Assembly (NCBI GenBank): GCA_946187695.1
Contig: CAMHSB010000006.1
Coordinates: 4,675-68,674 of the forward strand
From: an uncultured Bacteroidales bacterium
Lineage (GTDB): Bacteria; Bacteroidota; Bacteroidia; Bacteroidales; Paludibacteraceae
DNA: 64,000 nucleotides
Reading direction: 5' to 3'
A program made the position numbers and the translations under genes. Position 1 is the first letter of the stretch; each line of letters starts with the position of its first letter. Under the pieces are notes generated by a model. That model worked only from the letters and a program-made list of their open reading frames with translations, did not search any database and was not told the origin of the DNA. This document shows, piece after piece, positions 1 through 16,240 of this stretch.

Positions 1-340
1 GATAATGATCAAGAATTTCTGCCTCTTTAGCTGCATTTAATACAGAATGATGCTCTATGCTAGATACCAGTACTTCTCTACCACTAAAAATAATATTACG
101 TAATACCCAGTTGTTACTTTCAGTTCCTCCAGAAGTAAAATAGATTTCTTCTGGTAACGCCCCTATACATTTAGCAATTGTTTCACGCGCCTTTGCAAGA
201 GCGGCTTTAGGAGCACGGGCAAAAGAGTATGGTTGTGACGCATTGCCATACTCAGATTGCATATAAGGCAGCATAGCTTGCAGGGCAGCATCACTTAACC
301 TTGTAGTAGCAGCATTATCAGCATATATCATCTTATTCAT
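1..340 (-). CDS. Cysteine desulfurase (class V aminotransferase, NifS/IscS/DndA-like), N-terminal ~113 codons; continues past the window edge
   Basis: Own translation from ATG at 340-338: MNKMIYADNAATTRLSDAALQAMLPYMQSEYGNASQPYSFARAPKAALAKARETIAKCIGALPEEIYFTSGGTESNNWVLRN...VSSIEHHSVLNA. FTSGGTESNN and IEHxSV are hallmark NifS/IscS motifs. Its ATG overlaps the TGA of the upstream ORF (TGATG). Confidence 0.8.
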   Translation of the reverse strand, partial: MNKMIYADNAATTRLSDAALQAMLPYMQSEYGNASQPYSFARAPKAALAKARETIAKCIGALPEEIYFTSGGTESNNWVLRNIIFSGREVLVSSIEHHSVLNAAKEAEILDHY

Positions 341-543
341 CAAATGAATAATTTACATCCTTCTGACTTAAATTCTTCTATCTTAGCGTAGATATCTTCA
401 ACATCACAACCTAAATATGAAGCCAAGCAATCTATGCAGTAGTAGTTTTCTATATCTTCCCCAAGCAGTTTTTTATTAATACCGATGGTATTCTTGTCGA
501 GATTCTTCTTCCCGCAAGATATGCATTCTTTAGAGTTCTTCAT
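340..543 (-). CDS. Small Cys-rich zinc-ribbon-like protein (67 aa from internal Met MKNSKE; the ORF track gives 85 aa from 597)
   Basis: CISCGKK...YCIDCLASYLGC...EGC pattern (CxxC...CxxC). The internal start leaves only a 14-nt overlap with the brxL-like stop; the stop codon is coupled to the cysteine desulfurase ATG. Confidence 0.5.
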   Translation of the reverse strand: MKNSKECISCGKKNLDKNTIGINKKLLGEDIENYYCIDCLASYLGCDVEDIYAKIEEFKSEGCKLFI

Positions 544-1972
544 GAATATCTCGAATTGAAAACGCCGGCATATTTTTGCCTCGATATTGTTCATCAATTA
601 TTCCCATCTGGCGCAGGATGATTTGACGCATCTTAACCGCTGGACGCAGACAATATTGTTGGAATTCGCGCACGTTGATATCTTCCTCAGAACGTACGTG
701 GGGGAACAGAAGTTTTAAATATGCTGTGGCTATACGTTTAACCGCCTCTGTATTACGTGTGTCTGCATCTGATGGATACTCTACAATCCTATCTACAATA
801 GCACGATAAGAAGCATCATCACGAAGCAAGTGAAGGATAGTTGTAAAGTACTCCGAATTAAGTGCCCAGCCGGAGATTTTGAGACCTTCATTCATACGAG
901 GAATATCCCATCCCTTGATGAAACCGTGAATACGATCCATTAAAGCACTCGTTCTAAAGATAAGAGGTAGTGAGTCAAACATATTTTGGAATTCATCCAT
1001 CTTATCTTGATCGATATTACCAAGCATTACAAAACCAGCATCAGCAACATCATTTTTGTCTCCTATTTTGACAGTACCTTGCTCCATATAACCTTGTAAT
1101 GTTTGAGTCATTTCGGCAGGATTGTCAAATTCAACCTTTTGAATTTCATCAAAAGCAATATAGTCATGGAAGAAGACAAGACCATCTTCTCTACGTCCTA
1201 AGTCGTAGAACAATTTAGCACGTGTCATCTTTCCTGCTGATAGATATCCATATCGACTGATATTTCCGAATATATAAGATTTACCAGTTCCTTTAGGAGC
1301 CAATTCAATTAAATTGAGACGTTTTTCTACGAAAGGTAGAACTCGTTGAATCATGGATAGTTTCTCGTGCTCGTCTTTATAGCCGGAGGCGTTATAGTCC
1401 ATGGCGCCAAGAATAACATCAATCCATTCATGAATATCAAATTCCTTTCGAATGTTTTTGTAATAGTCCAAGTCTATTTCGTAAGGGCAGAAATTTTGGA
1501 AACTGAGTAGTTTTATTTTTCCTTTCTGTTTCAAAACATCATCAGGATATCGATAGCCGAGTTCTACTATACCCCATGTCTCTTTTGCTTTAATCAATTC
1601 ATCTTGACACATATCCCATACCCTTGACTCAATGATGGTATCTTTATTTGACAACCCAAAATCAGGTAAAGAGAAGGTCACTTCTTGATTCTTAATGTCA
1701 ATATCTACAGAGATACGAGTAAGAATCTTTACATGTTCATTTTCTACTACTATACGGTTCTTTACCGCTGTCCACTCTGCTTTTGAGGGTATATATGTGT
1801 GGACAAAATCGGTAATCTCTTTAATATCGAATTTACCATCTTCATCTTCAAACATTTTTAATAGCCAATCACGTAAAAATGATGGTAAACTTAGTGACTT
1901 AAAAAAGTTACTTTCTTTGAGGTCTTTATAAACTACCATCTCCTCAAAGCAATTTCTCAATTTCTTCTCCAT
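530..1972 (-). CDS. brxL: BrxL-like AAA+ ATPase (BREX Lon-like protein family, short 480-aa form)
   Basis: The N-terminus (VVYKDL...LPSFLRDWLLKMF) resembles the BrxL N-domain. Walker A LAPKGTGKSY and Walker B YIAFDEIQ are present. Lies directly downstream of pglZ. Confidence 0.65.
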   Translation of the reverse strand: MEKKLRNCFEEMVVYKDLKESNFFKSLSLPSFLRDWLLKMFEDEDGKFDIKEITDFVHTYIPSKAEWTAVKNRIVVENEHVKILTRISVDIDIKNQEVTFSLPDFGLSNKDTIIESRVWDMCQDELIKAKETWGIVELGYRYPDDVLKQKGKIKLLSFQNFCPYEIDLDYYKNIRKEFDIHEWIDVILGAMDYNASGYKDEHEKLSMIQRVLPFVEKRLNLIELAPKGTGKSYIFGNISRYGYLSAGKMTRAKLFYDLGRREDGLVFFHDYIAFDEIQKVEFDNPAEMTQTLQGYMEQGTVKIGDKNDVADAGFVMLGNIDQDKMDEFQNMFDSLPLIFRTSALMDRIHGFIKGWDIPRMNEGLKISGWALNSEYFTTILHLLRDDASYRAIVDRIVEYPSDADTRNTEAVKRIATAYLKLLFPHVRSEEDINVREFQQYCLRPAVKMRQIILRQMGIIDEQYRGKNMPAFSIRDIHEEL

Positions 1973-1978
1973 ATATGA

Positions 1979-4261
1979 CTAAAAGAATTTACGTTCGTTA
2001 ATACCTTCCTTCTTGACTTCAAATGTCAAATTTTGGGCGATAATACTATTATTTACATAGACATCCATCGTGTGCATTCCTGCTTTTTTAACATCAGGCA
2101 TTTCAACTGTATAGTAATACTTATTCTCAGTTTTGTGAGCTTCGTAGTACTTGCCTTCTACTAAAACTTTAACATCTTCGAAATCTTCCGATATATAAAT
2201 GCGTACTACCGCATTTTTCTTAAAGCTTGCTGTTACAATCGTGGATTGAGAATCAATCATGCATTTTAGGGATGCAGACTGACGAGTAATCTCAATAATT
2301 GGAACAATAACTTCCTCTAATGTTGCTCCTCCGTGAACCTCGACATTAGCTTTGCGACCACCACGGAATCGATCGTAGTTTGCTAAACACCAGAAATCAT
2401 TTTCTTCTGTTGCCTGTTCCGGTTTTTCTGAAATGTCGGATTTGGGGCAGCAACGACCGGAGTGTTGTCCCTTTTCGCTAACTTCCCACTTGTTTTCGTG
2501 CTCATTTATCACAGCAAGGCGACTAGCACCATGATCCGAGATTAGGTATATTCTTCTATATTGACCCGACAGTAAATCGCTTTCCACGTGTTTGAGTAAC
2601 GTTTGTATCTCGGATAGTTCAGAATATAAATGGATAGGAAGCTTTTCTGTCTCGTAATTGTATGACATCACGCCATTATGCTTTATCTCATCTATAGCCT
2701 TTATATCACGTACCGGAGTGTTTGATAAATTAAATTCGCCAACAAATTCCTTATTCTTACTTGTAATAGATGGTAAATTACATAGACCATACTTGATATT
2801 ACCAACAAGTCCTAATTCATATAGTTTCTCTTGAATATACCCGAGATATTCAACGCCCATAGCGTCAGTAAAATATACAAGAGCATTTTCTTTTGATAAC
2901 TTAGATACAATCGAGGCGCGAGGAACTAAATATTTATTGTATTCTCGTTTTATAGCCTGTTCGCTCACAATCTCCTTCATTTCATCTGAGATATAATTTG
3001 CAATCTTACAATATTTATACATCTCAAAATAATGAGTAAAGATATCCTCTTTGAATCTAAACTTTTTAAGGTATGCCAATAGATCTGGTGAAACATCAGT
3101 TAATAGAGCCTGTACTTTATCTATTGTATAAATATCTCTGTATTTTGCAATAACCGAAAGCAACATGCGTTTCTCGCTCCAAGTGTAATCTGTTAAGTAA
3201 CCTAATGCCTTTTCGTTCTTCCCACTGACAATTTTACAAAATTCACTCGCAGCACCTTCCTCAGCTACATTCTTGAGAATATTTCTTCGTTCTAAATATA
3301 AGTTCCTAAAATGCTTATTAGTCGTATCAAAGTCTAATATAAAATTGTAGAAATTTTGAATAAAATTCTCATATCTGTCTGTTTTGCCGAGAACGTACGA
3401 TAGATATTCGTTATTCTTGACTCCACATACCTTTAACGAGACGAAATGTGCCCACTTTTTATTTGGAGAGTAGGAAGAGTATTGATGGAAACAATTAGCT
3501 AAATTAGGTATTCCGGCATATTCGGACACAAGAAAATCATCCCAGTTAGAGCGCTTAATGAGCGTATTAGCTAAATATTCCCATTGTTCAGATGTTCCCC
3601 ATTGTTCTTCTATACCACTAAGTGCAGAATATATTCCAACTATACTATCAAAACTAGAGTTAAGTTCTCTAATAGGGATGAGGGATAATGGGAAATCTTT
3701 TTTTGTTTTAGAAGTTACAACATTACATTCCATATCAGCAGATTGATCGTAGTATTCCACCATCTTATCAAGACCATCAGAATATACGGTACAGGTGTTT
3801 TTTAGTTTTTTTGATATGAATAATAATGTTGTTATGGGATGATTTGTGTCGGAAGAAACGATTAACACCCTGTTGGCGGCTGATATACGCGGGTCGCTAA
3901 ACTTGAGATAATCTGCACATTGTACTGTTACTAATATCAATTTCCCTTGAGCTTCCAAGGAGATAAAATTCTTTAAAAAGCGTTTAGTCTCTTTGGCACC
4001 CTTTAGTTTAAGAGCCACACTAATCCCGGTCAAGAACGTTGTTCCCGATAATAATGACACGTCATTGAGCAACTTTGGTATGTCGGGAAGGTTATCCTTG
4101 ATGGCATATTTGTGGCTGCCAACAAAACGATTCTTTCCAACATGATAGTGGGTCTTAAACTCAGATAAATCTTTCGCCGAAGGTAAGTCCACTATTATTG
4201 GACTTTGAAATTCGGACGATAGGTATTTATCGACTTTTTTATATGCTTCTGCTATTGTCAT
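1979..4261 (-). CDS. pglZ: PglZ-domain (alkaline-phosphatase fold) protein of BREX
   Basis: 760 aa. YFTDAMGVEYLGY and RIYLISDHGASRL motifs are typical of the PglZ domain. Sits between brxC-like and brxL-like genes. Confidence 0.8.
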   Translation of the reverse strand: MTIAEAYKKVDKYLSSEFQSPIIVDLPSAKDLSEFKTHYHVGKNRFVGSHKYAIKDNLPDIPKLLNDVSLLSGTTFLTGISVALKLKGAKETKRFLKNFISLEAQGKLILVTVQCADYLKFSDPRISAANRVLIVSSDTNHPITTLLFISKKLKNTCTVYSDGLDKMVEYYDQSADMECNVVTSKTKKDFPLSLIPIRELNSSFDSIVGIYSALSGIEEQWGTSEQWEYLANTLIKRSNWDDFLVSEYAGIPNLANCFHQYSSYSPNKKWAHFVSLKVCGVKNNEYLSYVLGKTDRYENFIQNFYNFILDFDTTNKHFRNLYLERRNILKNVAEEGAASEFCKIVSGKNEKALGYLTDYTWSEKRMLLSVIAKYRDIYTIDKVQALLTDVSPDLLAYLKKFRFKEDIFTHYFEMYKYCKIANYISDEMKEIVSEQAIKREYNKYLVPRASIVSKLSKENALVYFTDAMGVEYLGYIQEKLYELGLVGNIKYGLCNLPSITSKNKEFVGEFNLSNTPVRDIKAIDEIKHNGVMSYNYETEKLPIHLYSELSEIQTLLKHVESDLLSGQYRRIYLISDHGASRLAVINEHENKWEVSEKGQHSGRCCPKSDISEKPEQATEENDFWCLANYDRFRGGRKANVEVHGGATLEEVIVPIIEITRQSASLKCMIDSQSTIVTASFKKNAVVRIYISEDFEDVKVLVEGKYYEAHKTENKYYYTVEMPDVKKAGMHTMDVYVNNSIIAQNLTFEVKKEGINERKFF

Positions 4262-4262
4262 A

Positions 4263-7200
4263 TTACTTTGAACGTATTATTTCAACACCTACTCGGGCAT
4301 TGGTTTTGATGAGTTTTTTCAAATATTGTTTAGCCTCATCCGGATTCATAGTATCAATCTTGGCGAAAGCTTTATTGTAGCCGTCTTTCATATACTTATC
4401 TCTGAATAACTCGTCTAACTTATTCGAGAGTGAAGTTGACTGACACCAGTCATATACTTCTGCATACAAATGCTCAGCTAAATAATTCTTAATCAAGTCT
4501 ATGTCATCCAGTAGAACGATTCGATCTCTAATAATATATTTTTTGAACGCTTCATCCCGAGCATTCGCATCTTTTAGTACATTCCAGAATGCAAAAGCTT
4601 TGAAGTAAGAGAGAGCCTTCTTGGTTGTAGAACTATCCGGATTAGATGCGTTTATGCACGCGAAATATTGCTTGTTATCGCTCCATTCTTCTTCTGGCAG
4701 CATTATTTGTAAAGGGACTTTATATTTCTCAGACCATGCAGAAGGTGTATCTGTACCTGTATTTTCTTTCCATAGGTTTCGTAGCAAGATAGAATCAAGC
4801 TGTTGAAGATATTCTTTGATAATGGCAGAAACGCAATTCCTGTAATCCGATTCATCCATCGTGAAACAGTTGGTCGGAATCTTTCCAAATATACTATCTT
4901 GGTCGTTATCAGACAAACCTGATAATAAATCTGCACATGATTTCTTGAAGTATTCTGATTGATTCGCATACAATCTAAGGAATTCGTAGCCTTGATTTTG
5001 AATCTCTTGTAAGAATGCTTCATTTTGGAGCGTCGTGAGTGCGGTAGATAACTTAGATAGGTAATATAAGCGCTCTAATAAACTATCTATTTGACTTGTA
5101 TAATTTTTGATTACTTGATAAGCCAAATGCATATTACTGCAACGAGATGCCCACAAATTCAATGCGTCTTTATAAGATTTACATGGACTATGGAGAACTT
5201 CAGAGGTGGCTTTTGCTATTTTGTACTCACATATCAACTCCTTTATTTTACTCTCTGCTGTATCTTGCTTCCACACCCAATTGGCTGCATCTGCATCAAA
5301 CTTCTCCCTAAGTACATTGATATATTGACCTCCGTCATTTATATCTGCTGCGATAGATAGAAGTTCCGAATAATAAGCCTTTATGAATAATTCCATGCCT
5401 CGTGTGCAATTTTCTTTCGTTAGCACAAGTGACAATTGATCCATAAGGTCATCATCTGATATGATGATTCTTCCTATTTCCATCGCAATGTCGTTATCAG
5501 ATTTACCGGAGTTATCCTTAACATTATTTGCTAAATTGCAATAATGCTCTAATAACGTACACAATTCTTCCCCTTTAGTTACTCCATCTATCACTTCTAA
5601 TGCATACTTAAGAGTCCACAAAGGAAATGCGAATTCTTTCATCTTGTTACGAATGTATGTGCGTGTATGCTCTACAGACGTACAATATTGGTGCGATATG
5701 TCAAACGCCTTAGATGATGCGTTGAAAAATGCTTTCTCTTCGGGAGTGACTGCGACTATGTATTTCTGACGGTAACGGGAATTTGGCGTGTTATCGAGTT
5801 TGATAACCTCGTCAACCATTTCTTCAAATTTCGTTTCCGTTAATTCTTCGCTTGATATATCATCACTATAAGAGAATGAGCCACTTTTAACGTACTCCTT
5901 CATCAAAAAACCTATCATGAATGCGGAGAAGTTACATGGCATAAATCCATAAGGTTCTGCTTTTAAGAATTCATATATCTCTTGGATTGCTATACGACCA
6001 TTTTTCTCTAAATGCTCATCAACAAAGCGATTGAGTGCTATCTTAATTTTCGAAATATTATAAGATGGTATAGATTCCCAATAAGCGGGCTTCTTCCATA
6101 CAGAGTCTAAAACCACATTCAGCCTGTTGGTGGCATTTCCAGAATTGTACACTCCCTTCAATTCTTCTTGTAACGCACTTTCTACTCCTTGTTTTAATGT
6201 CGTGCATATCCATAAGTTATTATTAACCGAGAATTGATCAAGGCATAGATGGTAGCGTTTAACTGTTATTGTGCGTAGCGCATCAATTATAGACGCAAGG
6301 TTAGGATGATATTCTGTATTTGCTAATTCCTTGCAGGACAGTTCGAATTGACCTTTAGTTATAGCAAGTTTCCAGTCCTTTAGAATGTTATTCGCATAGT
6401 TCGAATAATATTGAGCCTGTTGATTGTCCTTGCCGGTAAATATTGCGGCTTTGGCTTTATATCCGACCCATTCGTCGAATTTAAGCTTTCCTAACACGGT
6501 CTTAGATGTATTGACAAATACAACTATGCTATCTGGATTTTTAGAACGAAATTCAGATATTTTTTGTGTTAACATAGCTGCCTCTTGCTCATCCTTTGCA
6601 AATAATAGAATAAAAGGTATTTTCCCATAAGTTGAATTATCATTATTTGCTTTGGAAGTGATCAACTCAAAATTATCCAAACATGCTTCATATGGTTTGA
6701 ATCTCAATTTGATAGCATCCGTCAACTCGATAAATTCACGCAGGGCACCCTCCGAGATAAGCGAGTTGGTAGTTGTAGATTCAAACTTCTTTTTGGAATC
6801 GTTGATTTTTGTGCTATCTAATTCTGAAGTAAGAATACTATAGACAAACTTATCAGAACCCATTGGTTTTTTATATACGATATTATCTCGAACCAATTTT
6901 TCGGCACATGAAATAGCCTCATTTTCTAAATCAGAGCCTTCAAACGCATTAGAAAGATTCCTTTCGGTCGCCAGGAATATATCTACTGCGTCATTAACCT
7001 CAAGAGACATAGCCTGCATGAGAAGAATCGTTTTTAACACTCTCTCTTCTTCGGATGTCAATTTTTTCGTTGTGCTCAGGCGAGGATAGTTGTCTAGAAT
7101 CATGCGAATATTCTGGGCTAAACTATCTTTTCCTAAGTCATAGAAGAAGCCCCATAGCATATCGATTGTCAAAAGAGGATTCTCGTCATAAGGTCCAAAG

Positions 7201-8450
7201 TTATCAATAAACCAACAGAATCCTTTGTTTTCTCCTCCATTTTCATTTTTAATAAAGTCAAACATACTGCGTTGGTTTGACTCAAAGGAAGTAGAAATGT
7301 GCTTTAACAAACAAGCTGTGTATGGATGTATAGGAAGAACTCCTTGTAGAATATCATCATCTATTTGAGCTATGTTTTTAACTATCTTGCGAGATTCTAC
7401 TGTTCGTTCACATAAATCGGCAATTATTTTTCCCCATTCTTTTTGTAGCACCTCGTCCTTATTTTTTTGCATAGCGGCTCCCATAAGTTTGAATGCCATA
7501 TTCTCAGGAAGTTCGATTCTGCGAGTTGGGCGATTAAAACGTCCTAAAATCTTACTCTTTTGCGTAGGATCTGCTAACAACGCCTCGCTCTTATGGGTGA
7601 CAAGGATGAAACTAAACGGCGTAGTCTCGCTCAGTTCAAGTATCGTTTGGAATCCGGTCTGAGTGTCCAAATTGTTCTTAAAGTATTCTGTGAACTCATC
7701 CCATATAAACACAATAGAATTAAGATTGTTTACATTGATAACTTCTTTTATCCATCCACATAAGGCTTTGTCATCAAGCGTAAACGCTTTAATTTGTTTT
7801 TCATGCGCTACACGGAACACCTTACTCATTAACTCTAATAAAGGAACTCCGGTAAAAGTAGAGAGATTGTGTATGATATCATCAACAGACGCTCCTGCAA
7901 AAAGATTTTTGTAACTACCATTTACATAGACAGCAAAGCTATTTTTGTTTTCTTCGTCTGAAAGATACTTAATGACAGAGTCCTTCATAGAAGAAGAAGC
8001 CATGTTTGTAATTCCTGCCTCTTTAAGCGCATCTTCTATACTCTCTTGTATCGCCAAGAATAAATCGTTATCGCCATGAATTGCTGACGAACCATAGCGA
8101 TGAATGGTAATTACTTTCCCTTGATTCTTTGCACTAAGAAACTTATTAAGAAGGTCGTTATCTAAGCTAAAATTATGAAAATATTCTTTGGTCTCCGCTT
8201 CCGACGCATCCAATAATCGTTTAAGGGTGAGTACAGCATGGGACTTTCCTGTTCCATATGCTCCTTCTACCCAAATGTTTAATTTTTTAGTACGTGTGAT
8301 AACTCCTATAGTATCTTTAAGCAAATCAACAAATGTAGAGTGTGGATAGAATTTCTTCCACAAATCTTCGTCATGCTTAATAACATCAGCGTTTACTGCA
8401 GGAAAGTAATCAGGATCTATTTCAAAAAAATGACGATAACTATTAGCCAT
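4263..8450 (-). CDS. brxC: BrxC/PglY-like large P-loop NTPase (1395 aa)
   Basis: N-terminal Walker A WVEGAYGTGKSHAV, Walker B-like IVFIWDEFTEY, very long helical C-terminal part. Position between the PAPS-reductase gene and pglZ matches BREX type 4 order. Confidence 0.7.
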   Translation of the reverse strand: MANSYRHFFEIDPDYFPAVNADVIKHDEDLWKKFYPHSTFVDLLKDTIGVITRTKKLNIWVEGAYGTGKSHAVLTLKRLLDASEAETKEYFHNFSLDNDLLNKFLSAKNQGKVITIHRYGSSAIHGDNDLFLAIQESIEDALKEAGITNMASSSMKDSVIKYLSDEENKNSFAVYVNGSYKNLFAGASVDDIIHNLSTFTGVPLLELMSKVFRVAHEKQIKAFTLDDKALCGWIKEVINVNNLNSIVFIWDEFTEYFKNNLDTQTGFQTILELSETTPFSFILVTHKSEALLADPTQKSKILGRFNRPTRRIELPENMAFKLMGAAMQKNKDEVLQKEWGKIIADLCERTVESRKIVKNIAQIDDDILQGVLPIHPYTACLLKHISTSFESNQRSMFDFIKNENGGENKGFCWFIDNFGPYDENPLLTIDMLWGFFYDLGKDSLAQNIRMILDNYPRLSTTKKLTSEEERVLKTILLMQAMSLEVNDAVDIFLATERNLSNAFEGSDLENEAISCAEKLVRDNIVYKKPMGSDKFVYSILTSELDSTKINDSKKKFESTTTNSLISEGALREFIELTDAIKLRFKPYEACLDNFELITSKANNDNSTYGKIPFILLFAKDEQEAAMLTQKISEFRSKNPDSIVVFVNTSKTVLGKLKFDEWVGYKAKAAIFTGKDNQQAQYYSNYANNILKDWKLAITKGQFELSCKELANTEYHPNLASIIDALRTITVKRYHLCLDQFSVNNNLWICTTLKQGVESALQEELKGVYNSGNATNRLNVVLDSVWKKPAYWESIPSYNISKIKIALNRFVDEHLEKNGRIAIQEIYEFLKAEPYGFMPCNFSAFMIGFLMKEYVKSGSFSYSDDISSEELTETKFEEMVDEVIKLDNTPNSRYRQKYIVAVTPEEKAFFNASSKAFDISHQYCTSVEHTRTYIRNKMKEFAFPLWTLKYALEVIDGVTKGEELCTLLEHYCNLANNVKDNSGKSDNDIAMEIGRIIISDDDLMDQLSLVLTKENCTRGMELFIKAYYSELLSIAADINDGGQYINVLREKFDADAANWVWKQDTAESKIKELICEYKIAKATSEVLHSPCKSYKDALNLWASRCSNMHLAYQVIKNYTSQIDSLLERLYYLSKLSTALTTLQNEAFLQEIQNQGYEFLRLYANQSEYFKKSCADLLSGLSDNDQDSIFGKIPTNCFTMDESDYRNCVSAIIKEYLQQLDSILLRNLWKENTGTDTPSAWSEKYKVPLQIMLPEEEWSDNKQYFACINASNPDSSTTKKALSYFKAFAFWNVLKDANARDEAFKKYIIRDRIVLLDDIDLIKNYLAEHLYAEVYDWCQSTSLSNKLDELFRDKYMKDGYNKAFAKIDTMNPDEAKQYLKKLIKTNARVGVEIIRSK

Positions 8451-8464
8451 GATTATAACAAGAT

Positions 8465-10801
8465 TTAAAAGAGGTTAAGTACATCTGTTGAGAATTTATC
8501 ATCTCGTAAGGAAATGTTATCAAGATCGAGAGTAAATGATGACGAAATGAAGTCTGGATATTTAGCGCTGAGGCCATTAATAACGCGCTTCATTATTTCT
8601 GAATCTACGCCAAACATTTGTACCGGGCTAATTCCTTCACTATCAACAGATGTATCCATTAAACGACTTAAAGTGAATTGATAATAGCCACCACAAGCTT
8701 CTGCAAAGCGGTACAAGCTATATAATATAACGAGATCGTCAGGATTCCCCCACGGCATTCTCTGAATCTTATAGTTATTGCGCTCTGCATCTACTATTAA
8801 GCCGAACCCAAGTTCGCCTAAAGGAAGAGCCGATATGCGTTTAATAGAATTCGGAACCGATTTTACAGCACTTGCGCTAACTCCTTCTGTGTTGCCGAGA
8901 ATTTCAGATATATACTGCTGTGATATAGGTTCTCCAAAGTCAAAGTTGCGCACAAACCAACCTACTTGAGCAGAATAACAAAGATTGACATACATAGCAG
9001 CCCATATCTGCTTGTCATCTAGTCCACGCTCACGTAGTAGAGAGGCTAAGATTGTCTCTGTATTGTTACTCAAAAGACCTGCATCTCGCAAGAACTTTTT
9101 GAACGCAGGAAATTCATTATTTCCTAACGTGTACTCCGTGTAGAATCTGCTCTCTAATTTGATAAATTGACTAAACCAATCTAATTTAGGAGCGTGTGTT
9201 GCATAACTGTCAAGTGATGATTTCATATTTCCATTTCCTTTTGATAACCATAATGATTTATAAACGAGACAACCTGTGTCTATGTCAAAACATTGTCCAC
9301 AGCGTATGCAAGAGTCGCTAATATGAAGATGTCCCGCCTCGTCAAATTTCAGATTGCCATGATTGCAATTAGCTTCGCATACTTTACATCCAACGCAATA
9401 ATGACTTTTGCGGAAGACTCGCCTAATCATTTTGACGAATTCTATTCCTAATTTTGATTTATCGTTTTTTACAATAACTTTTAAATATCCATTTTCCATT
9501 GGTAAAACTTCCAAATCAAACTCTGTACCTCTAAACAGAATTTTGTATTTGTCGTCATAATCTGTGACAAGTAGTTTCCCAATTGGCTTTATCCATTGTT
9601 TCCAATTGTTATCGTGATTGTAGAAGGTAATGATCAACTTTCCGTCGTTGGTAGTGGCTTCGTCATAATCTTTTTTCGCTATTGTTAAGTCTCGTCCATT
9701 TTTACGAGCTTTCCATCCTGTATTTTCAAGATAGCTCCTCAGTTTAGCTTCATTACCTTTATCTACCGCATTAAATTCACGAATAATATCATAGTACGGA
9801 TCCGCTTCTGATTTATAACATTGTTGATTCATGTAATCGCTCTTGCGTGCCGACATAGGACACACTAAACAACCGGCACGGCTATTCCCTCTTTTGTATG
9901 CCTTGTTAATAGGAAGACGATTAGAGTATAGATATAAATAAACTTCAGCAGAGTTCCATTCTAGTATAGGGTTGCAACTATACTGACCTCTGTGTTTTGT
10001 GCCGTAAGACACGAAATCATAACCGCTACGACGGAGACTTTCATCGCCTCTAACTCCCACAAATGCCATTTCTCGGAAATTTTCCTTTCCTACAATTTCC
10101 CTTATAGTCAACAACTGTGGAGTTGTCTTATGCACACTACAACACCAGCGAATTGCGGAGGCTGGAGGACCGAATAGTTTCCATGAGTCTGATGGTTTCA
10201 AATGAGATTTCGCCACATAAAATTTAATATTGTAGTCTTCACATCTTTTCTTTGCCATCTCTACTGCTTCATATGTATCGGAGAACTCCATACCTGTATC
10301 TCCAAAGATCACTACAAATTCGTTATGCGGGAGAGCTCTCTGTACTAAATCTAAAGCCACCTCACTATCTTTACCTCCGCTAAAAGATACGTGGAATATA
10401 TCAACTTTATCTTTGTAGGCAAGGAATGTGTTGTATATAAATTTGATGGTATCTTGTACTAATCCATTGAGGACTTCTTTATTTTTATATACCATCATAT
10501 CAATATCCACGAAACGGAGAGGCGCATTATTTTCTTCGGGAGTATCAATAATATTTACTTCTGGAGCTGTATAAAGCGAACCGCCTTTAAGAGAGGCCAC
10601 TAATTTGCCACGATAGTAATATTCATTAGCTTCTGCCCACATATACGGGGCAGAGTCATCTTTAGCATATGACCAATGCTGATTAAAACCAAGAGTGTCC
10701 ATCTCTTGATAATATACTGGACGTGGCTCTTTGCTAAATGCCAACGGAGTAGTATTCAGCAATAACCCTCCTGATTCTTTGTCGTAGGTATATGAGTACA
10801 T
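8465..10801 (-). CDS. brxP: BrxP-like PAPS-reductase/DndC-like PP-loop ATP pyrophosphatase with ferredoxin-type Fe-S Cys motifs
   Basis: PP-loop HVSFSGGKDSEVALD (nt ~10364-10381). RWCCSVHKT and RAGCLVCPM Cys motifs as in the DndC/IbrA family. CVGCKVCEANC...CIRCGQCFDIDTGC (nt ~9257-9394) resembles a 2x[4Fe-4S] ferredoxin signature. Confidence 0.75.
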   Translation of the reverse strand: MYSYTYDKESGGLLLNTTPLAFSKEPRPVYYQEMDTLGFNQHWSYAKDDSAPYMWAEANEYYYRGKLVASLKGGSLYTAPEVNIIDTPEENNAPLRFVDIDMMVYKNKEVLNGLVQDTIKFIYNTFLAYKDKVDIFHVSFSGGKDSEVALDLVQRALPHNEFVVIFGDTGMEFSDTYEAVEMAKKRCEDYNIKFYVAKSHLKPSDSWKLFGPPASAIRWCCSVHKTTPQLLTIREIVGKENFREMAFVGVRGDESLRRSGYDFVSYGTKHRGQYSCNPILEWNSAEVYLYLYSNRLPINKAYKRGNSRAGCLVCPMSARKSDYMNQQCYKSEADPYYDIIREFNAVDKGNEAKLRSYLENTGWKARKNGRDLTIAKKDYDEATTNDGKLIITFYNHDNNWKQWIKPIGKLLVTDYDDKYKILFRGTEFDLEVLPMENGYLKVIVKNDKSKLGIEFVKMIRRVFRKSHYCVGCKVCEANCNHGNLKFDEAGHLHISDSCIRCGQCFDIDTGCLVYKSLWLSKGNGNMKSSLDSYATHAPKLDWFSQFIKLESRFYTEYTLGNNEFPAFKKFLRDAGLLSNNTETILASLLRERGLDDKQIWAAMYVNLCYSAQVGWFVRNFDFGEPISQQYISEILGNTEGVSASAVKSVPNSIKRISALPLGELGFGLIVDAERNNYKIQRMPWGNPDDLVILYSLYRFAEACGGYYQFTLSRLMDTSVDSEGISPVQMFGVDSEIMKRVINGLSAKYPDFISSSFTLDLDNISLRDDKFSTDVLNLF

Positions 10802-10803
10802 AA

Positions 10804-12639
10804 TTATTTTTTATTCATCTTATTTCTTAATTCCTGCGCTTTAACTAATATTTTCTCTATGTTTTTAAAAGTGCGGAATGCTATATATTTTTTATCGACT
10901 AAAAATTCCAAAGCTTCAGTTTTATTTAGATCGATATCGGACTCTGCAAGAATTTGTGTAATAACACTACTATAGTCATCATAGTGGGATGTTCTTTTTA
11001 TTATTGCTCCGACTACTTTATCTTGATTATATCTTTCATGTGCTAAAGTGAACTTTGCACTACAACTAACGAGATAGGATTCAAGCAGATAAATATTCCA
11101 AGGGTATTGACTGGGAGGGAATGATGTTAGTACCACATCTGAAAAGCTTACATATGAACTTTGTGTAAACTTTTCTATAGTTTCATCTATTGCATTAACA
11201 TCAAACTCTATGGTGTTTTTGTGTACAAATGTATCATAATTAATGCGAAGATAATAGTTGTACGCTATTTCATAACGAATAGAATCAGAACCACATTCTA
11301 AACAGAACGCTTTCAGCTCTGCTAGAGACGTTGTGTCGTGAGTCTTACAAAATGAATCTATTGCTGAATTCGAATCTACAGGATGCTCTATACTGCTAAT
11401 GATATTTCTAATGAAAGAGAATTTATCTTGTAATAAAACATACAAAGAATTTCTAATACCCAACTCTCGAAGAGATATGTTATTGTCCCATACATTGGGA
11501 GTAGTGGCTTTGATAATATCTATTAAATCTGATTTTGTTGCATAACCATACGATAGAATAGTAGAACTTAATTTATTTTCTACCCTCTGCAAGTCCGACT
11601 TGTTTATATCGAAATTGTCTATGTGAAAACATAATTCTCTGCCCCCAGAGATTATTTTATTCGGCTTTTGTTCTATGCTCCGCATGATCACTTCGCGTGG
11701 TAAGTGATGAAGTTCATTACATAATTCTGTAAAAGAAATAATTGTGCCATACTCCTTAATGAAAGTTTCTACTGTCTCAGCAATATTTACGGAACACTCT
11801 GCTGAGTTCGTTATCATATTGTCTTTATAGAACCATCCACTATCGCCATACTTTTTCAAGTATTCACGTAACATTTCTGCATCAAACATCTTTTGATTAG
11901 AGAACATTTGGTTGAAATGTTCGTATAGTACAGAGTAATAGATAAAGGTATTGCCAGACTCGAAACATTCGGCAATATAGCTCAGCAATTCTATTTTACT
12001 ATCTTCGTCTAAAATTTGAGAAGGTAGATACAGCATGTCTTTATATATCACTCCATAGGCAGACAGTTCGTCATCACTAATTTCTCCCAAAGGTTCTCCA
12101 ATAATATCAAGATACAAATGTGATAAACGCTTTCTTTCATTATGTGAAGAAAAACGGAAACCGTGTCTAAATTTTGTAGTAAGTACTTCCTGAAGATGCG
12201 GATTAATCTTGAACTCCGTTTTTATTCCATCATTTTCCATATCTTGTTTTGTGGGGAATAAGACAGGAGTGCCTTCTCGGTCTAATGATGGCGCATAGGG
12301 ATACATTACTTCCGCTTCTGCAAGAATTGTTTCATATTCCTCGGGACTATCTAAACTCATATTCGCAACATCTGCTATAACCTTACTTGGACTATGTAAT
12401 CCATGAAGTCCGTCAGTTAACGTATATTTAACAGAAGCAAGTTGCATTGAAATGCCATTTGTGTTTCGATATGTCGGATCTATTGTTAAACCTTTTGATA
12501 TTGCAGCTTGACGCAATCGATTAGACACTTCGATTGTTGCATCATTTTTTGAGATCTTTCCATTACGAATGCGCCAATAAGCATCCACAAGAAGGGATGC
12601 TTCGTACTGATTCCAATTTGCGTTTATGTTTTGTGTCAT
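10804..12639 (-). CDS. Hypothetical 611-aa protein, first gene of the BREX-like operon (start taken at MTQNINANW, downstream of the promoter box)
   Basis: Long ORF with a 2-nt gap to brxP. The N-terminal ~100 aa (WNQYEASLLVDAYWRIRNGKISKNDATIEVSNRLRQAAISKGLTIDPTYRNTNGISMQ) looks like a module I have seen at N-termini of restriction/defence-associated proteins. I recognise no catalytic motif. Confidence 0.5.
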   Translation of the reverse strand: MTQNINANWNQYEASLLVDAYWRIRNGKISKNDATIEVSNRLRQAAISKGLTIDPTYRNTNGISMQLASVKYTLTDGLHGLHSPSKVIADVANMSLDSPEEYETILAEAEVMYPYAPSLDREGTPVLFPTKQDMENDGIKTEFKINPHLQEVLTTKFRHGFRFSSHNERKRLSHLYLDIIGEPLGEISDDELSAYGVIYKDMLYLPSQILDEDSKIELLSYIAECFESGNTFIYYSVLYEHFNQMFSNQKMFDAEMLREYLKKYGDSGWFYKDNMITNSAECSVNIAETVETFIKEYGTIISFTELCNELHHLPREVIMRSIEQKPNKIISGGRELCFHIDNFDINKSDLQRVENKLSSTILSYGYATKSDLIDIIKATTPNVWDNNISLRELGIRNSLYVLLQDKFSFIRNIISSIEHPVDSNSAIDSFCKTHDTTSLAELKAFCLECGSDSIRYEIAYNYYLRINYDTFVHKNTIEFDVNAIDETIEKFTQSSYVSFSDVVLTSFPPSQYPWNIYLLESYLVSCSAKFTLAHERYNQDKVVGAIIKRTSHYDDYSSVITQILAESDIDLNKTEALEFLVDKKYIAFRTFKNIEKILVKAQELRNKMNKK

Positions 12640-12663
12640 TTTGCCAAGTGTCGTGCGTACATA

Positions 12664-12684
12664 GCACGCATGCATCTGCGTGCA
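12664..12684 (-). promoter_or_regulatory. Palindrome (GCACGCA-N6-TGCGTGC) in the 5' UTR of the BREX-like operon; candidate operator or RNA hairpin
   Basis: Perfect 7-bp arms between the -7 box (12700-12707) and the start codon (12639). A second small hairpin (CGTGC-N7-GCACG) follows. The element is GC-rich relative to the island. Confidence 0.35.
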
Positions 12685-12699
12685 CAAAAAAACTGGCTG

Positions 12700-12707
12700 C
12701 AAAGGTA
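12700..12707 (-). promoter_or_regulatory. Bacteroidota -7 promoter box (TACCTTTG) for the BREX-like operon
   Basis: Minus strand reads TCGTACCTTTGCAGCC, matching the TAnnTTTG consensus, ~60 nt upstream of the ATG at 12639. Confidence 0.55.
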
Positions 12708-12812
12708 CGAAAAATTTTTGATATGTGCAAGACATTTTGCCATATTATGTTTATTTTAGGCTAAAAGCAATTGTTTTTTTACTAAAAACTTGTATATCTG
12801 ATTAAAATTTGC

Positions 12813-12820
12813 TAATTTTG
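12813..12820 (+). promoter_or_regulatory. Bacteroidota -7 promoter box (TAATTTTG) for the divergent GIY-YIG/DGQHR genes
   Basis: GCTAATTTTGCG lies 29 nt upstream of the ATG at 12849. Confidence 0.5.
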
Positions 12821-12848
12821 CGAATAATTTTACAATTATATATACAAT

Positions 12849-13384: not shown

Positions 13385-13386
13385 TT

Positions 13387-14658
13387 ATGGCAACTGCTAT
13401 TAACATACCAGCCATACGTGGTCATGTAGGTGAGATTGTTTATTACACATCTGTTTTTACTTTTCAACAAATTGTTGAGAGAGTCAAAAAAATAGATGAT
13501 GAGTTGCACACGTCTAAATCTTTGCGCGACCAATTGCAACGAAACCTAACGGAAAATTATAAGAGCATCAAAGACTACATTCTGAGTCACGATGATAGGT
13601 TCTTCAATGCGTTAGTTTTAGCTGTTTATGATGGGGAGCCTACGTGGAATCCCATTGAGATATTTTTTAAAGAAAATCCGTATCATTCGATGGGTTTTCT
13701 TCAACTGAATGGAGAAGAAAAGATATTTCCCGTAGATGGGCAGCATCGTGTTGAAGGAATAAAAGCGGCTCTGAAAATTAATCCAGAACTAAAAGATGAG
13801 ACCATTGCTGTTATATTCATTGGTCACCAGAAGTCTGAGCAAGGCATGGAGAAAACAAGACGCATTTTTACCACCTTGAACCGCTATGCTAAACCTGTCA
13901 AATTAGGTGATATCATTGCATTGGATGAAGATGATATAGTTGCCATTACGACACGTGAACTTTTGGAGTCATATCCTTTGTTTATGGGGAAAAAGATTAG
14001 CAATGCAAAAAATAGTAAAGCTATACCAGATTCAGATACCAATGCGTTTACTACTTTAATGTCGTTATACGAAAGTCATTTGACGTTATACAAATATTTC
14101 AAACAGCACCATGACAGAAAGAGTAAACCATATTCATCTACAGAGATAAAAGAGTCTCTAAAATTACGTCCAAATCAGAGTTCACTAAATGCCTTTAAAT
14201 CTTTCGTAATAGATTTTTGGAACATATTCTGCGCGAATTATGATGGCATGCGTGAATTTAAGGATAGTCAAGCAGATAATGCTGCCAGTCCGTATCGAAA
14301 CAAACAAGGAGGATTGATATATTTCCGTCCAATTGGAATAGAGTCACTGATTCACGCACTGCTACTGACGGCTCAACGCACACCAGAAAAACCATTGGCA
14401 AATATAGTGACTGAATATGCTACTTTAAAATACAACTTGGCTGAGACACCATGGAAGGGCGTGTTTTGGAGACAAAATAATCAGACAATGATTATGGGAA
14501 ACAATCCCCTTGCTGTTTTGTTGCTGATGTATATGTATAATCCAGATCTCCTCACAGAAAAAGAAATGGAGCGTTTGAAGAAAAGATATGCGGATGCTCT
14601 ACAACTTGAGAACATAGAAGATGTGGATGCCAAACTAGAAGAGTTAAGAATGGCATAG
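13387..14658 (+). CDS. DGQHR-domain protein (DndB-like, ParB/Srx superfamily)
   Basis: 423 aa with the literal FPVDGQHRVEGIKAAL motif, ALVLAVYDG upstream and IFTTLNRYAKPV downstream, as in the DndB/DGQHR family. Confidence 0.8.
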   Translation: MATAINIPAIRGHVGEIVYYTSVFTFQQIVERVKKIDDELHTSKSLRDQLQRNLTENYKSIKDYILSHDDRFFNALVLAVYDGEPTWNPIEIFFKENPYHSMGFLQLNGEEKIFPVDGQHRVEGIKAALKINPELKDETIAVIFIGHQKSEQGMEKTRRIFTTLNRYAKPVKLGDIIALDEDDIVAITTRELLESYPLFMGKKISNAKNSKAIPDSDTNAFTTLMSLYESHLTLYKYFKQHHDRKSKPYSSTEIKESLKLRPNQSSLNAFKSFVIDFWNIFCANYDGMREFKDSQADNAASPYRNKQGGLIYFRPIGIESLIHALLLTAQRTPEKPLANIVTEYATLKYNLAETPWKGVFWRQNNQTMIMGNNPLAVLLLMYMYNPDLLTEKEMERLKKRYADALQLENIEDVDAKLEELRMA

Positions 14659-14673
14659 AGATACAAACAGAAA

Positions 14674-14690
14674 AGTCGGAAACTCCGACT
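14674..14690 (+). terminator. Hairpin after the DGQHR gene (AGTCGGA-AAC-TCCGACT), possible terminator
   Basis: 7-bp stem 16 nt after the stop codon. The downstream T-tract is weak. Confidence 0.35.
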
Positions 14691-14745
14691 GTCTTATACT
14701 GAAATAGGTTTACTCATAAAACTGATAAAAAGTGTCAAATTTTAA

Positions 14746-14910
14746 GATTTTAGTTTTATAAAGCGAACACTAAATCGTTATTCTCAATCGTTCAAACAAC
14801 AAGTTTTGGATGATTATTTTCAGTCTAATGCTGACCAACGCGAGTGTGCCAGGAAATGGAAAATTCCGCAATCAACATTATTTACATGGCTTTGTGCTTG
14901 CAAGATCGTA
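14746..14910 (+). pseudogene. Remnant of a transposase/IS helix-turn-helix N-terminus
   Basis: In-frame translation KRTLNRYSQSFKQQVLDDYFQSNADQRECARKWKIPQSTLFTWL resembles IS orfA HTH regions, but no catalytic part follows. Confidence 0.35.
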
Positions 14911-16167: not shown

Positions 16168-16238
16168 GCGGTGTTAGCACATCGGTAGTGCATCGGCTTC
16201 CCAAGCCGAGGAGGCGGGTTCGATTCCCGTACACCGCT
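16168..16238 (+). tRNA. tRNA-Gly (anticodon CCC), 71 nt, CCA not encoded
   Basis: Hand-folded cloverleaf. Acceptor GCGGTGT/ACACCGC, D stem GCAC/GTGC, anticodon stem TCGGC/GCCGA with loop TTCCCAA, T stem GCGGG/CCCGT with loop TTCGATT. Confidence 0.85.
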
Positions 16239-16240
16239 CT

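What the first reader, a model, noticed from the sequence alone, without database searches (positions are those of the whole stretch)
1..12707. Seven-gene AT-rich operon: BREX type 4-like core extended at both ends
Seven minus-strand genes appear to be driven by one TACCTTTG promoter (12700-12707). Gaps between them are -14 to +14 nt, and the last junction is a TGATG stop/start overlap. The order is: unknown 611 aa, PAPS-reductase/DndC-like PP-loop enzyme, 1395-aa BrxC-like P-loop NTPase, PglZ, BrxL-like AAA+, Zn-ribbon, cysteine desulfurase. The middle four match the content and order described for BREX type 4 (brxP-brxC-pglZ-brxL), the methyltransferase-less BREX subtype. To my knowledge that subtype has no experimentally defined modification or mechanism. 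The three flanking genes are not part of the published core, so this may be a fuller or variant version of the system.
Basis: partly seen in the sequence, partly recalled or inferred. Interest (0 to 1): 0.85.

Follow-up and report, generated by a model that had tools for sequence, protein, structure and literature searches.

The report
Phosphorothioate-type BREX (type 4) defence operon
This is an intact seven-gene type 4 BREX island, a defence system recently shown in a related gut bacterium to put sulfur into the DNA backbone; its only undescribed part is the first gene, a fast-evolving DNA-binding-like protein found next to brxP in nearly every relative I checked.

Summary
Window 1-12707 carries seven tightly packed minus-strand genes in a 36% GC island within a ~53% GC, probably Bacteroidales, chromosome.

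- **Core genes:** the middle four are full-length BrxP, BrxC, PglZ (NCBIfam "BREX-4") and short BrxL.
- **Outdated novelty claim:** Yuan et al. (preprint 2024, Nat Commun 2026) showed that type 4 BREX makes phosphorothioate (PT) DNA. brxP plus brxC, with a host cysteine desulfurase, were sufficient.
- **Downstream genes already described:** Rakesh & Krishnan (NAR 2026) reported the cysteine desulfurase (56% of type-4 taxa) and an accompanying small zinc-finger protein.
- **What is left:** the first gene (611 aa). It matches no Pfam or NCBIfam family, and I found no mention of it in the text I could read of either paper.
  - A homologue lies directly upstream of brxP in 76/76 testable genome loci.
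  - Searching from this gene instead, brxP follows it in 76/77 metagenome loci.
  - It is the most divergent component (median 29% identity, against 50% for BrxP and 63% for BrxL).
  - The model shows an N-terminal five-helix domain, a variable insert and about six winged-helix modules. No enzyme domain was found.

Verdict: an ordinary member of a known, recently characterised system, with one conserved, uncharacterised subunit.

The parts
12700..12707 (-). TACCTTTG, candidate Bacteroidetes-type -7 promoter element about 60 nt upstream of the first gene
   Evidence: Read directly. It matches TAnnTTTG (consensus from my own knowledge), but ten further copies lie on the minus strand inside the operon. 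Plausible, not proven.
10804..12639 (-). First gene, 611 aa: uncharacterised multi-winged-helix protein. It has an N-terminal five-helix domain, a short linker where relatives carry large inserts, and about six winged-helix modules.
   Evidence: No Pfam or NCBIfam hit. The family has 2704 representative clusters. AF2 pLDDT is 80, and Foldseek hits are tandem winged-helix proteins. A homologue is directly upstream of brxP in 76/76 loci, and brxP follows it in 76/77 loci found through this gene. It is the most divergent component.
8465..10801 (-). BrxP, 778 aa: PAPS-reductase/PP-loop domain (138-315, SGGKDS), two CxxCxxCxxxC ferredoxin-like motifs (469-511), and a C-terminal region (532-741) that I take to be the SspB/DUF4007-like part
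   Evidence: PADLOC BrxP 1.4e-247 over the full length, and a second BrxP model over 532-741. Pfam PAPS_reduct 5e-29 and weak Fer4 hits. The cysteines are invariant in alignment A2. PF13182 is recorded for homologues P0121 and P0124.
4263..8450 (-). BrxC, 1395 aa P-loop ATPase (Walker A GAYGTGKSH), SspC-related
   Evidence: PADLOC BrxC 3.7e-256 over the full length; weaker SspC hits down to 7.5e-19. Sequence.
1979..4261 (-). PglZ (BrxZ), 760 aa, type-4 form
   Evidence: NCBIfam BREX_PglZ_4 at 400 bits against a cut-off of 140. Pfam DUF7864, DUF7863 and DUF7862. PADLOC PglZ 2.5e-95.
530..1972 (-). Short BrxL, 480 aa: BrxL_N plus an AAA+ ATPase domain, with no room for the C-terminal Lon-like domain
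   Evidence: Pfam BrxL_ATPase 7e-105 and BrxL_N 1e-30. TIGR02688 at 405 bits against 329. PADLOC BrxL (482-aa model) 2e-206.
340..543 (-). Zn-ribbon protein, 67 aa. Its start overlaps the brxL stop by 14 nt. It has four invariant Zn-site cysteines and a fifth invariant Cys63 in KIEEFKxxGCxLF.
   Evidence: Sequence. Present after brxL in 68/68 testable loci. Conservation across 66 distinct homologues. It is the most conserved protein of the set (median 68% identity).
1..340 (-). N-terminal 113 codons of a NifS/DndA/SspA-like cysteine desulfurase. The start overlaps the Zn-ribbon stop (TGATG), and the rest lies beyond the window edge.
   Evidence: Pfam Aminotran_5 1.7e-22. PADLOC DndA 1.3e-30 and SspA 1.8e-30. 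Present in 63/68 related loci.
13387..14658 (+). Divergently transcribed DndB/DGQHR-family gene (423 aa) in the same AT-rich island. Possible accessory or separate module; not a conserved part of the system.
   Evidence: Pfam DndB 2.5e-31. TIGR03187 DGQHR at 104 bits against 59, but TIGR03233 DndB at 86 bits against a cut-off of 328. It recurs in only one of the other 184 loci: L088, directly upstream of the first gene on the same strand.
16168..16239 (+). tRNA-Gly(CCC) at the right-hand border of the low-GC island, followed by RNase P RNA (16242-16540)
   Evidence: ARAGORN, Rfam, GC profile.

Best explanation
This is a horizontally acquired, intact type 4 BREX system. It is a modification-based defence island that marks host DNA with phosphorothioate (PT) instead of methyl groups.

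Modification arm (inferred from homology and published genetics):
- The NifS/DndA-like desulfurase takes sulfur from cysteine.
- BrxP (PP-loop/PAPS-reductase domain, Fe-S motifs, SspB-like DNA-binding tail) works with the BrxC ATPase to insert sulfur at short sequence motifs.

Restriction arm (inferred by analogy with type 1 BREX only):
- PglZ and the short BrxL AAA+ protein act with BrxC on DNA that lacks the mark.

The first gene:
- It encodes a non-enzymatic protein built from an N-terminal helical domain and about six winged-helix modules.
- It is an obligatory companion of brxP in this clade and the fastest-evolving subunit.
- My best reading is a DNA-binding sensor or adaptor that couples target or invader recognition to the BrxC/PglZ/BrxL machinery, rather than a simple repressor.

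The 67-aa Zn-ribbon is a highly conserved small partner, translationally coupled to brxL and the desulfurase. Its role is unknown.
For: **Family assignments.** BrxP, BrxC, PglZ-4 and BrxL all match at full length and above curated cut-offs. Catalytic motifs are visible in the sequence: SGGKDS, GAYGTGKSH and GTGKSY.

**Published function of homologous systems.**
- B. salyersiae type 4 BREX makes PT dinucleotides.
- Deleting brxC abolishes PT.
- brxP+mcrA+brxC reconstitute PT in B. thetaiotaomicron, which has its own SufS.
- mcrA, brxZ, brxL and a further unknown operon gene (HMPREF1532_02796) are not needed for PT.
- A brxP deletion could not be obtained (PMC12914056).
- The desulfurase and the zinc-finger protein are described as type-4 components (PMC12839542).

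**Conservation of the full seven-gene order** in 80 species-representative genomes from Bacteroidales, Clostridia, Negativicutes, Fibrobacter and Melainabacteria:
- first gene 76/76
- core genes 68/69
- Zn-ribbon 68/68
- desulfurase 63/68
- reciprocal search from the first gene: brxP next in 76/77

**First-gene anatomy.**
- AF2 pLDDT is 80, and Foldseek hits are tandem winged-helix proteins such as UFL1, SelB and Dcc1.
- Long relatives carry RNA_pol_A_CTD and Sigma70_r4 domains; single examples carry Sel1 or Phage_int_SAM_1. No enzyme domain appears.
- Its N-terminal domain was detected in 137/148 representatives.
- It has the lowest identity of all components: median 29%, and 60% where BrxL is 93%.

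**Horizontal acquisition.** The island is low-GC and ends next to a tRNA gene.
Against: - No PT chemistry, target motif or phage restriction can be tested here.
- Anti-phage activity of these gut type-4 variants is itself still unshown (PMC12914056 Discussion).
- The published reconstitution construct held only brxP, mcrA and brxC, so the first gene is not needed for modification there, and its role is pure inference.
- I could not check whether the B. salyersiae operon contains a homologue of it.
- A regulatory role is not excluded: it is DNA-binding-like and first in the operon.
- The desulfurase is truncated by the window, so its PLP lysine and catalytic cysteine are unseen.
- The loci sampled are the best-scoring 80 of 288 (genomes) and 80 of 421 (metagenomes). 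The 'universal' statement therefore applies to this clade, not to all type 4 BREX.
Confidence: 0.85

Rival explanations
1. The first gene is only a transcriptional regulator of the operon, BrxR- or C-protein-like. It would bind the promoter region and set expression, with no part in recognition or restriction.
For: It is built of winged-helix modules, and relatives carry sigma-70 region 4 and alpha-CTD-like DNA-binding domains. It is the promoter-proximal gene. The published PT reconstitution construct held only brxP, mcrA and brxC.
Against: At 611 to about 2000 aa with about six winged-helix modules, it is far larger than typical defence-operon regulators. Some loci carry an additional small Xre-type HTH_3 gene just upstream, a more ordinary regulator candidate. 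It is the fastest-evolving subunit, which in my judgement fits an interface under conflict better than an autoregulator. Its linkage to brxP is strict across phyla (76/76 and 76/77).
Confidence: 0.25
2. The locus is better filed as an Ssp- or Dnd-type PT system that happens to sit beside PglZ and BrxL, not as BREX.
For: BrxP gives weaker hits to SspD (1e-10) and DndC (3e-6), BrxC to SspC (7.5e-19), and the desulfurase to DndA and SspA (1e-30). A DndB-family gene lies divergently next door. The literature treats BrxP as an SspD-SspB fusion and BrxC as an SspC homologue.
Against: The Brx models win by more than 200 orders of magnitude and cover the full lengths. PglZ passes the BREX-4-specific NCBIfam cut-off. 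PglZ and BrxL lie inside the same tightly coupled operon in 68/69 loci. No family hit to DndD, DndE, SspE or DndFGH was found among the ORFs of at least 60 aa that I scanned in the island. The DndB-like protein fails the DndB equivalog cut-off and is not conserved with the system.
Confidence: 0.05
3. The flanking genes are unrelated neighbours, and the operon is really the published four-gene core.
For: None beyond the fact that the original type 4 definition listed four genes.
Against: There is near-universal co-occurrence in fixed order across phyla, with overlapping or 1-14 nt junctions. A genuinely non-conserved gene after the desulfurase in some relatives (100-197 aa) found no homologues in the 80 genome loci. 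So the approach can distinguish conserved from incidental neighbours.
Confidence: 0.02

Closest known systems
BREX type 4 (brxP-brxC-pglZ-brxL) as characterised in Bacteroides salyersiae DSM 18765 (Yuan et al., Nat Commun 2026; PMC12914056)
   Same: Same four core families in the same order, with no PglX methyltransferase, in a probable Bacteroidales host. The expected product is PT-modified DNA made by BrxP plus BrxC with a cysteine desulfurase.
   Different: The B. salyersiae operon has an mcrA gene between brxP and brxC and relies on a host SufS, as described in the paper. Here there is no mcrA, and a dedicated desulfurase and Zn-ribbon follow brxL. Whether B. salyersiae has the first-gene family could not be checked. 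The PT motif of this system is unknown.
Type-4 BREX as catalogued by Rakesh & Krishnan (NAR 2026; PMC12839542): BrxC, BrxP+DUF4007, PglZ with N-terminal inactive STAND, short BrxL, cysteine desulfurase (56% of taxa) and a small zinc-finger protein
   Same: All of these components are present here in one operon.
   Different: I found no mention of the 611-aa multi-winged-helix first gene in that paper's main text or in the supplementary indices I could read. In my sample the Zn-ribbon follows brxL even in the 5 loci without a desulfurase, so it is not simply a companion of the desulfurase.
SspABCD PT modification module
   Same: Homologous chemistry and parts: SspA corresponds to the desulfurase, SspD plus SspB to BrxP, and SspC to BrxC (weak PADLOC hits; homology stated in PMC12914056).
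   Different: Ssp systems pair with SspE or SspFGH for restriction and lack PglZ and BrxL. The best-scoring models here are the Brx ones by a wide margin.
Type 1 BREX (BrxA, BrxB, BrxC, PglX, PglZ, BrxL)
   Same: A BrxC/PglZ/BrxL chassis and a modification-based self/non-self logic.
   Different: PT replaces N6-adenine methylation, and BrxL lacks the Lon-like domain. PglX both modifies and recognises the site in type 1. No equivalent recognition subunit is established in type 4, which is why the fast-evolving first gene is of interest.

Membership tests
BREX type 4 | BrxP: PAPS-reductase-domain protein in place of the PglX methyltransferase | tested here: met
   PADLOC BrxP 1.4e-247 over residues 1-777 of a 779-position model. 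Pfam PAPS_reduct at 102 bits against a cut-off of 22.5.
BREX type 4 | BrxC/PglY P-loop ATPase | tested here: met
   PADLOC BrxC 3.7e-256 over residues 1-1394. Walker A GAYGTGKSH is visible in the sequence.
BREX type 4 | PglZ of the type-4 subfamily | tested here: met
   NCBIfam NF033445 BREX_PglZ_4 at 400 bits against a cut-off of 140.
BREX type 4 | BrxL | tested here: met
   TIGR02688 at 405 bits against a cut-off of 329. Pfam BrxL_N and BrxL_ATPase.
BREX type 4 | No PglX-type DNA methyltransferase in the operon | tested here: met
   No methyltransferase family was hit among the seven operon proteins or among the ORFs scanned in 12.8-16.3 kb. DNA to the left of the window is unseen.
BREX type 4 | Phosphorothioate modification of host DNA dependent on brxP and brxC | not testable with these tools
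   Shown for B. salyersiae (PMC12914056). Here it is inferred from homology only.
BREX type 4 | Exclusion of phage or foreign DNA | not testable with these tools
   Stated as still awaiting investigation for these gut variants in the published work.
Dnd (DndABCDE) PT system | DndC equivalog, DndD SMC-like ATPase and DndE | tested here: not met
   TIGR03183 DndC scores 24 bits against a cut-off of 290. No DndD or DndE hit was found. The neighbouring DndB-like protein scores 86 bits against a cut-off of 328.
SspABCD PT system | Separate SspB, SspC and SspD proteins that score best to the Ssp models | tested here: not met
   SspD 1.3e-10 and SspC 7.5e-19, against 1e-247 and 4e-256 for the Brx models. 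The homology is real, but family membership lies with Brx.

The most novel reading that the evidence does not exclude
The conserved first gene (N-terminal five-helix domain, variable insert, six winged-helix modules) is the missing recognition or sensor subunit of PT-based BREX. It would read DNA (motif or PT status) or phage cues and license the BrxC/PglZ/BrxL restriction arm. That would take over the DNA-recognition role that PglX plays in methylation-based BREX, and its rapid divergence and swapped-in DNA-binding inserts would reflect an arms race. A secondary, more speculative point: the invariant fifth cysteine of the Zn-ribbon could make it a sulfur-relay or Fe-S partner between the desulfurase and BrxP.
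Probability: 0.3. Interest if true: 0.6.

Novelty: new member of a known kind. Interest (0 to 1): 0.35.

Why it matters
Type 4 BREX is now a recognised PT-modification system enriched in gut bacteria, but how it restricts invaders and how it chooses target sites is unknown. Neither main paper on type 4 BREX mentions, in the text I could read, a large, fast-evolving, non-enzymatic winged-helix protein encoded directly ahead of brxP in every relative sampled. It is an obvious candidate for deletion and binding studies. The window itself adds no new chemistry or new system type.

Tried and rejected
- **Promoter and terminator scans:** sigma-70 promoter and intrinsic-terminator counts equal the chance expectation and do not apply to Bacteroidetes promoters. 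The TAnnTTTG count shows the motif is too frequent in the AT-rich operon to be diagnostic.
- **First gene against BrxP:** profile-profile comparison, looking for a DUF4007/BrxA relationship, found none (probability 0.1%).
- **First gene against PDB sequences:** nothing (E = 0.14).
- **N-terminal domain alone:** the separate AF2 model is confident (pLDDT 87), but Foldseek found no PDB match with E < 1.
- **GIY-YIG idea:** the two short overlapping ORFs at 12849-13384 contain 'GIY' and 'YIG' strings either side of a frame change. A repaired translation hit no Pfam family even at E <= 10, so I dropped this.
- **DNA to the left of the window:** exact-sequence look-ups with BrxL and PglZ, meant to recover this DNA and the organism name, returned nothing, although both sequences are in the protein collection.
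- **Supplements:** those of Yuan et al. are not held, so the first gene of the B. salyersiae operon could not be identified.
- **Word-index search:** the first search found only 11 relatives of the first gene and briefly suggested a rare family. The exhaustive profile search (2704 clusters) and the locus scans corrected this.
Full report
**1. What is in the sequence**

Window 1-16000 is a low-GC block (35-40% GC) set against about 53% GC in the rest of the window. On its minus strand lie seven consecutive genes:

| Gene | Coordinates | Size |
|---|---|---|
| unknown first gene | 10804-12639 | 611 aa |
| BrxP | 8465-10801 | 778 aa |
| BrxC | 4263-8450 | 1395 aa |
| PglZ | 1979-4261 | 760 aa |
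| BrxL | 530-1972 | 480 aa |
| Zn-ribbon | 340-543 | 67 aa |
| cysteine desulfurase | starts at 340, runs off the window | 113 codons visible |

- The mechanical ORF for the first gene is 643 aa.
- TACCTTTG sits at 12700-12707 (minus strand), about 60 nt upstream of the start codon, in the only real intergenic gap.
- TAnnTTTG, which I recall as the Bacteroidetes -7 promoter element, is over-represented in the window (56 copies against 36 expected). It also occurs ten more times on the minus strand inside the operon. The promoter call is reasonable but unproven, and internal promoters cannot be excluded.
- The generic sigma-70 and terminator scan was uninformative.

**2. Family assignments**

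- BrxP, BrxC and BrxL match PADLOC models over their full lengths, with E-values of 1e-247, 4e-256 and 2e-206.
- PglZ passes the NCBIfam model named 'BREX-4 system phosphatase PglZ' (400 bits against a cut-off of 140). BrxL passes TIGR02688 (405 against 329).
- In BrxP, Pfam sees a PAPS_reduct domain and weak 4Fe-4S ferredoxin motifs. In PglZ it sees DUF7864, DUF7863 and DUF7862. In BrxL it sees BrxL_N and BrxL_ATPase.
- BrxL is the short form. At 480 aa it has no room for the Lon-like C-terminal domain.
- The truncated seventh protein is a class-V aminotransferase of the NifS/DndA/SspA type.
- Motifs needed for activity are visible in the sequence: SGGKDS in BrxP, GAYGTGKSH in BrxC and GTGKSY in BrxL. 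The eight ferredoxin-type cysteines of BrxP are invariant among homologues.
- Weaker hits to SspD, DndC and SspC reflect real homology, but family membership lies with the Brx models.
- No methyltransferase was found.

This is a bona fide, apparently intact type 4 BREX locus.

**3. What is already known**

That is out of date.

Yuan et al. (bioRxiv June 2024; Nat Commun 2026; PMC12914056) reported the following:
- Bacteroides salyersiae, which carries a 7-gene brx operon and no dnd or ssp genes, contains PT dinucleotides.
- Deleting brxC abolishes them.
- brxP+mcrA+brxC confer the same PT pattern on B. thetaiotaomicron, which supplies its own SufS.
- mcrA, brxZ, brxL and one further unknown operon gene are dispensable for PT.
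- brxP could not be deleted.
- They note that anti-phage activity of these variant systems still awaits investigation.

Rakesh & Krishnan (NAR 2026; PMC12839542) surveyed 457 type-4 taxa:
- They describe BrxP as PAPS-reductase plus an alpha+beta domain, a Fe-S-like region and DUF4007 (BrxA/SspB-like).
- They describe type-4 PglZ as carrying an N-terminal inactive STAND module.
- They report a cysteine desulfurase in 56% of taxa as a 'sixth core component'. It is 'often' accompanied by a small zinc-finger protein.

Equating their zinc-finger protein with this Zn-ribbon is my inference from its position.

**4. The first gene**

*No curated family.* It matches nothing in Pfam or NCBIfam, and only a sub-threshold PADLOC candidate.

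*Family size.* A word-indexed search found just 11 relatives. That was a sensitivity artefact. An exhaustive profile search over 1.84 billion representatives found 2704 clusters at E <= 1e-3 and 1109 at E <= 1e-30.

*Linkage to brxP.*
- Every metagenome context inspected in which the downstream gene could be identified has the gene immediately upstream of a 773-782-aa PAPS-reductase gene.
- For a systematic test I scanned one genome per GTDB species with a BrxP alignment. This found 288 genomes with relatives, and the best 80 were kept (45-62% identity). They come from Bacteroidales, Clostridia, Negativicutes, Fibrobacter, Melainabacteria and others.
- In those loci a family member lies directly upstream of brxP in 76 of 76 loci with enough upstream DNA. 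BrxC, PglZ and BrxL are all present in 68/69, the Zn-ribbon follows brxL in 68/68, and the desulfurase is present in 63/68.
- The reciprocal test started from the first-gene alignment in metagenome contigs: 421 relatives, the best 80 kept, 24-99% identity. brxP is the next gene in 76/77. The single exception is a system with an internal deletion.
- As a control, the small genes that follow the desulfurase in a few relatives found no homologues across the 80 genome loci.

The seven-gene layout is the normal architecture of this clade, and the first gene is dedicated to it.

*Structure.*
- AlphaFold2 gives a confident multi-domain model (mean pLDDT 80).
- Residues 41-145 form a five-helix domain. 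Residues 149-174 form a disordered linker. About six helix-helix-helix-hairpin modules follow.
- Foldseek against the PDB returns proteins built of tandem winged-helix domains: UFL1/DDRGK1, SelB, Dcc1, Egalitarian, RPC62, cullins and ScpB. No enzyme appears.
- The N-terminal domain modelled alone (pLDDT 87) has no PDB match.
- I found no relationship to BrxP/DUF4007 or to any PDB sequence.

*Variation across the family.*
- The N-terminal domain was detected in 137/148 representatives, and all 148 contain the C-terminal ~470-aa module.
- Protein length ranges from about 440 to about 2000 aa. In most members the N-terminal domain starts within the first ten residues and the C-terminal module ends at the protein's C-terminus. 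The extra length therefore lies mainly between the two.
- Where Pfam recognises anything in these inserts, it is mainly DNA-binding: RNA polymerase alpha-CTD and sigma-70 region 4, recurrently. Single examples carry Phage_int_SAM_1 or Sel1 repeats.

*Divergence.* Against the window proteins, median identities in the same loci are:

| Protein | Median identity |
|---|---|
| first gene | 29% |
| PglZ | 36% |
| BrxC | 43% |
| BrxP | 50% |
| BrxL | 63% |
| Zn-ribbon | 68% |

In the closest distinct systems (L001, L005) the values are 60%, 65-66%, 71-76%, 87% and 93-94% in the same order, first gene to BrxL.

**5. The Zn-ribbon**

- Across 66 distinct homologues, Cys7, Cys10, Cys36 and Cys39 are invariant. 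So is a fifth cysteine, Cys63, within KIEEFKxxGCxLF.
- The gene overlaps the end of brxL, and it persists in the five loci that lack a desulfurase. It is not merely a companion of the desulfurase.
- Its function is unknown. A sulfur-relay or Fe-S role is speculation.

**6. How it most likely works**

*Shown elsewhere and inferred here by homology.* The desulfurase supplies persulfide sulfur, and BrxP with BrxC installs PT at short motifs.

*Inferred by analogy with type 1 BREX only.*
- BrxC, PglZ and BrxL act on unmarked DNA.
- The published failure to delete brxP, while brxC can be deleted, fits a restriction activity that needs BrxC and is held in check by PT.

*Inferred from anatomy and evolution.*
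- The first gene is a non-catalytic, DNA-binding-type scaffold under diversifying pressure.
- I favour a sensor or adaptor role in the restriction arm over plain autoregulation. My reasons are its size, its strict linkage to brxP, its rapid divergence, and the separate small Xre-type HTH gene upstream of it in some loci.
- Because the published PT reconstitution construct held only brxP, mcrA and brxC, I do not propose it as part of the modification chemistry.

**7. Surroundings**

- The island ends near tRNA-Gly(CCC) at 16168-16239, which is followed directly by RNase P RNA. No integrase is visible on this side, and the left border lies outside the window.
- Divergent from the operon is a DndB/DGQHR-family gene at 13387-14658. 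It fails the DndB equivalog cut-off.
- That gene recurs in only one other locus (L088), where it sits directly upstream of the first gene on the same strand. Loci with a 99% identical first-gene protein carry a different neighbour. I treat it as an occasional accessory or a separate module.
- The flanking chromosome encodes a TonB-dependent receptor behind a cobalamin riboswitch, cyclomaltodextrinase-type amylase, C10 peptidases and a capsule-type tyrosine kinase. In my judgement this fits a Bacteroidales host. I could not obtain the organism name.

**8. Verdict**

- The system is not a new variant. It is a typical member of a clade whose modification chemistry was published in 2024-2026, and whose desulfurase and zinc-finger genes were catalogued in 2026.
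- The residual novelty is the conserved, fast-evolving multi-winged-helix first gene. I found no mention of it in the text I could read of either paper. I could not see their figures or full neighbourhood tables.

**Limits**

- My co-occurrence counts cover only the best-scoring 80 loci of each scan. They do not cover distant type 4 systems, such as the archaeal and cyanobacterial ones or the mcrA-containing B. salyersiae operon.

Noticed in passing
window 13387-14658 (+): A 423-aa DndB/DGQHR-family protein is transcribed divergently from the BREX-4 operon within the same low-GC island. It passes the generic DGQHR domain model but not the DndB equivalog cut-off. Its only other co-occurrence in 184 loci is L088:6910-8163, directly upstream of the first gene on the same strand.
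   Followed up: partly
window 12849-13384 (+): Two short ORFs (87 and 95 aa) overlap in different frames directly upstream of the DndB-like gene. They contain 'GIY' and 'YIG' strings either side of the frame change, but a repaired translation hit no Pfam family.
   Followed up: partly
window 16168-16540 (+): tRNA-Gly(CCC) is followed three bases later by a class A RNase P RNA (156 bits), right at the GC-content step that ends the island. This is a possible integration site. The other island end lies outside the window.
   Followed up: partly
window 25462-25603 (-): An AdoCbl (cobalamin) riboswitch, exactly at the gathering score, lies upstream of a 672-aa TonB-dependent receptor gene (23445-25463).
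   Followed up: no
window 35797-38025 (+): A second low-GC patch (34.5% GC at 36-38 kb) holds a 319-aa ORF with no Pfam match and a 407-aa Porphyromonas-type peptidyl-arginine/agmatine deiminase family protein.
   Followed up: no
window 48668-52999 (+): Two tandem paralogous C10-family cysteine peptidases (706 and 733 aa), each with an N-terminal Spi inhibitor-like propeptide domain.
   Followed up: no
L166:2895-9773: A metagenome relative in which the first gene is followed directly by a truncated PglZ, then BrxL, the Zn-ribbon and the desulfurase. BrxP, BrxC and the PglZ N-terminus appear to be deleted, which would leave a system without its modification genes.
   Followed up: no
L007:2795-3442, L008:1305-1985, L009:580-1227: In one sub-lineage (35% identical first gene) an ArdA anti-restriction gene lies just upstream. 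L007 also has a transposase nearby. This hints that some of these systems ride on conjugative elements.
   Followed up: no
L039:20504-21040: In a Bacillota MAG the position of the desulfurase after the Zn-ribbon is taken by an ORF matching only the N-terminal five-helix domain of the first-gene family.
   Followed up: no
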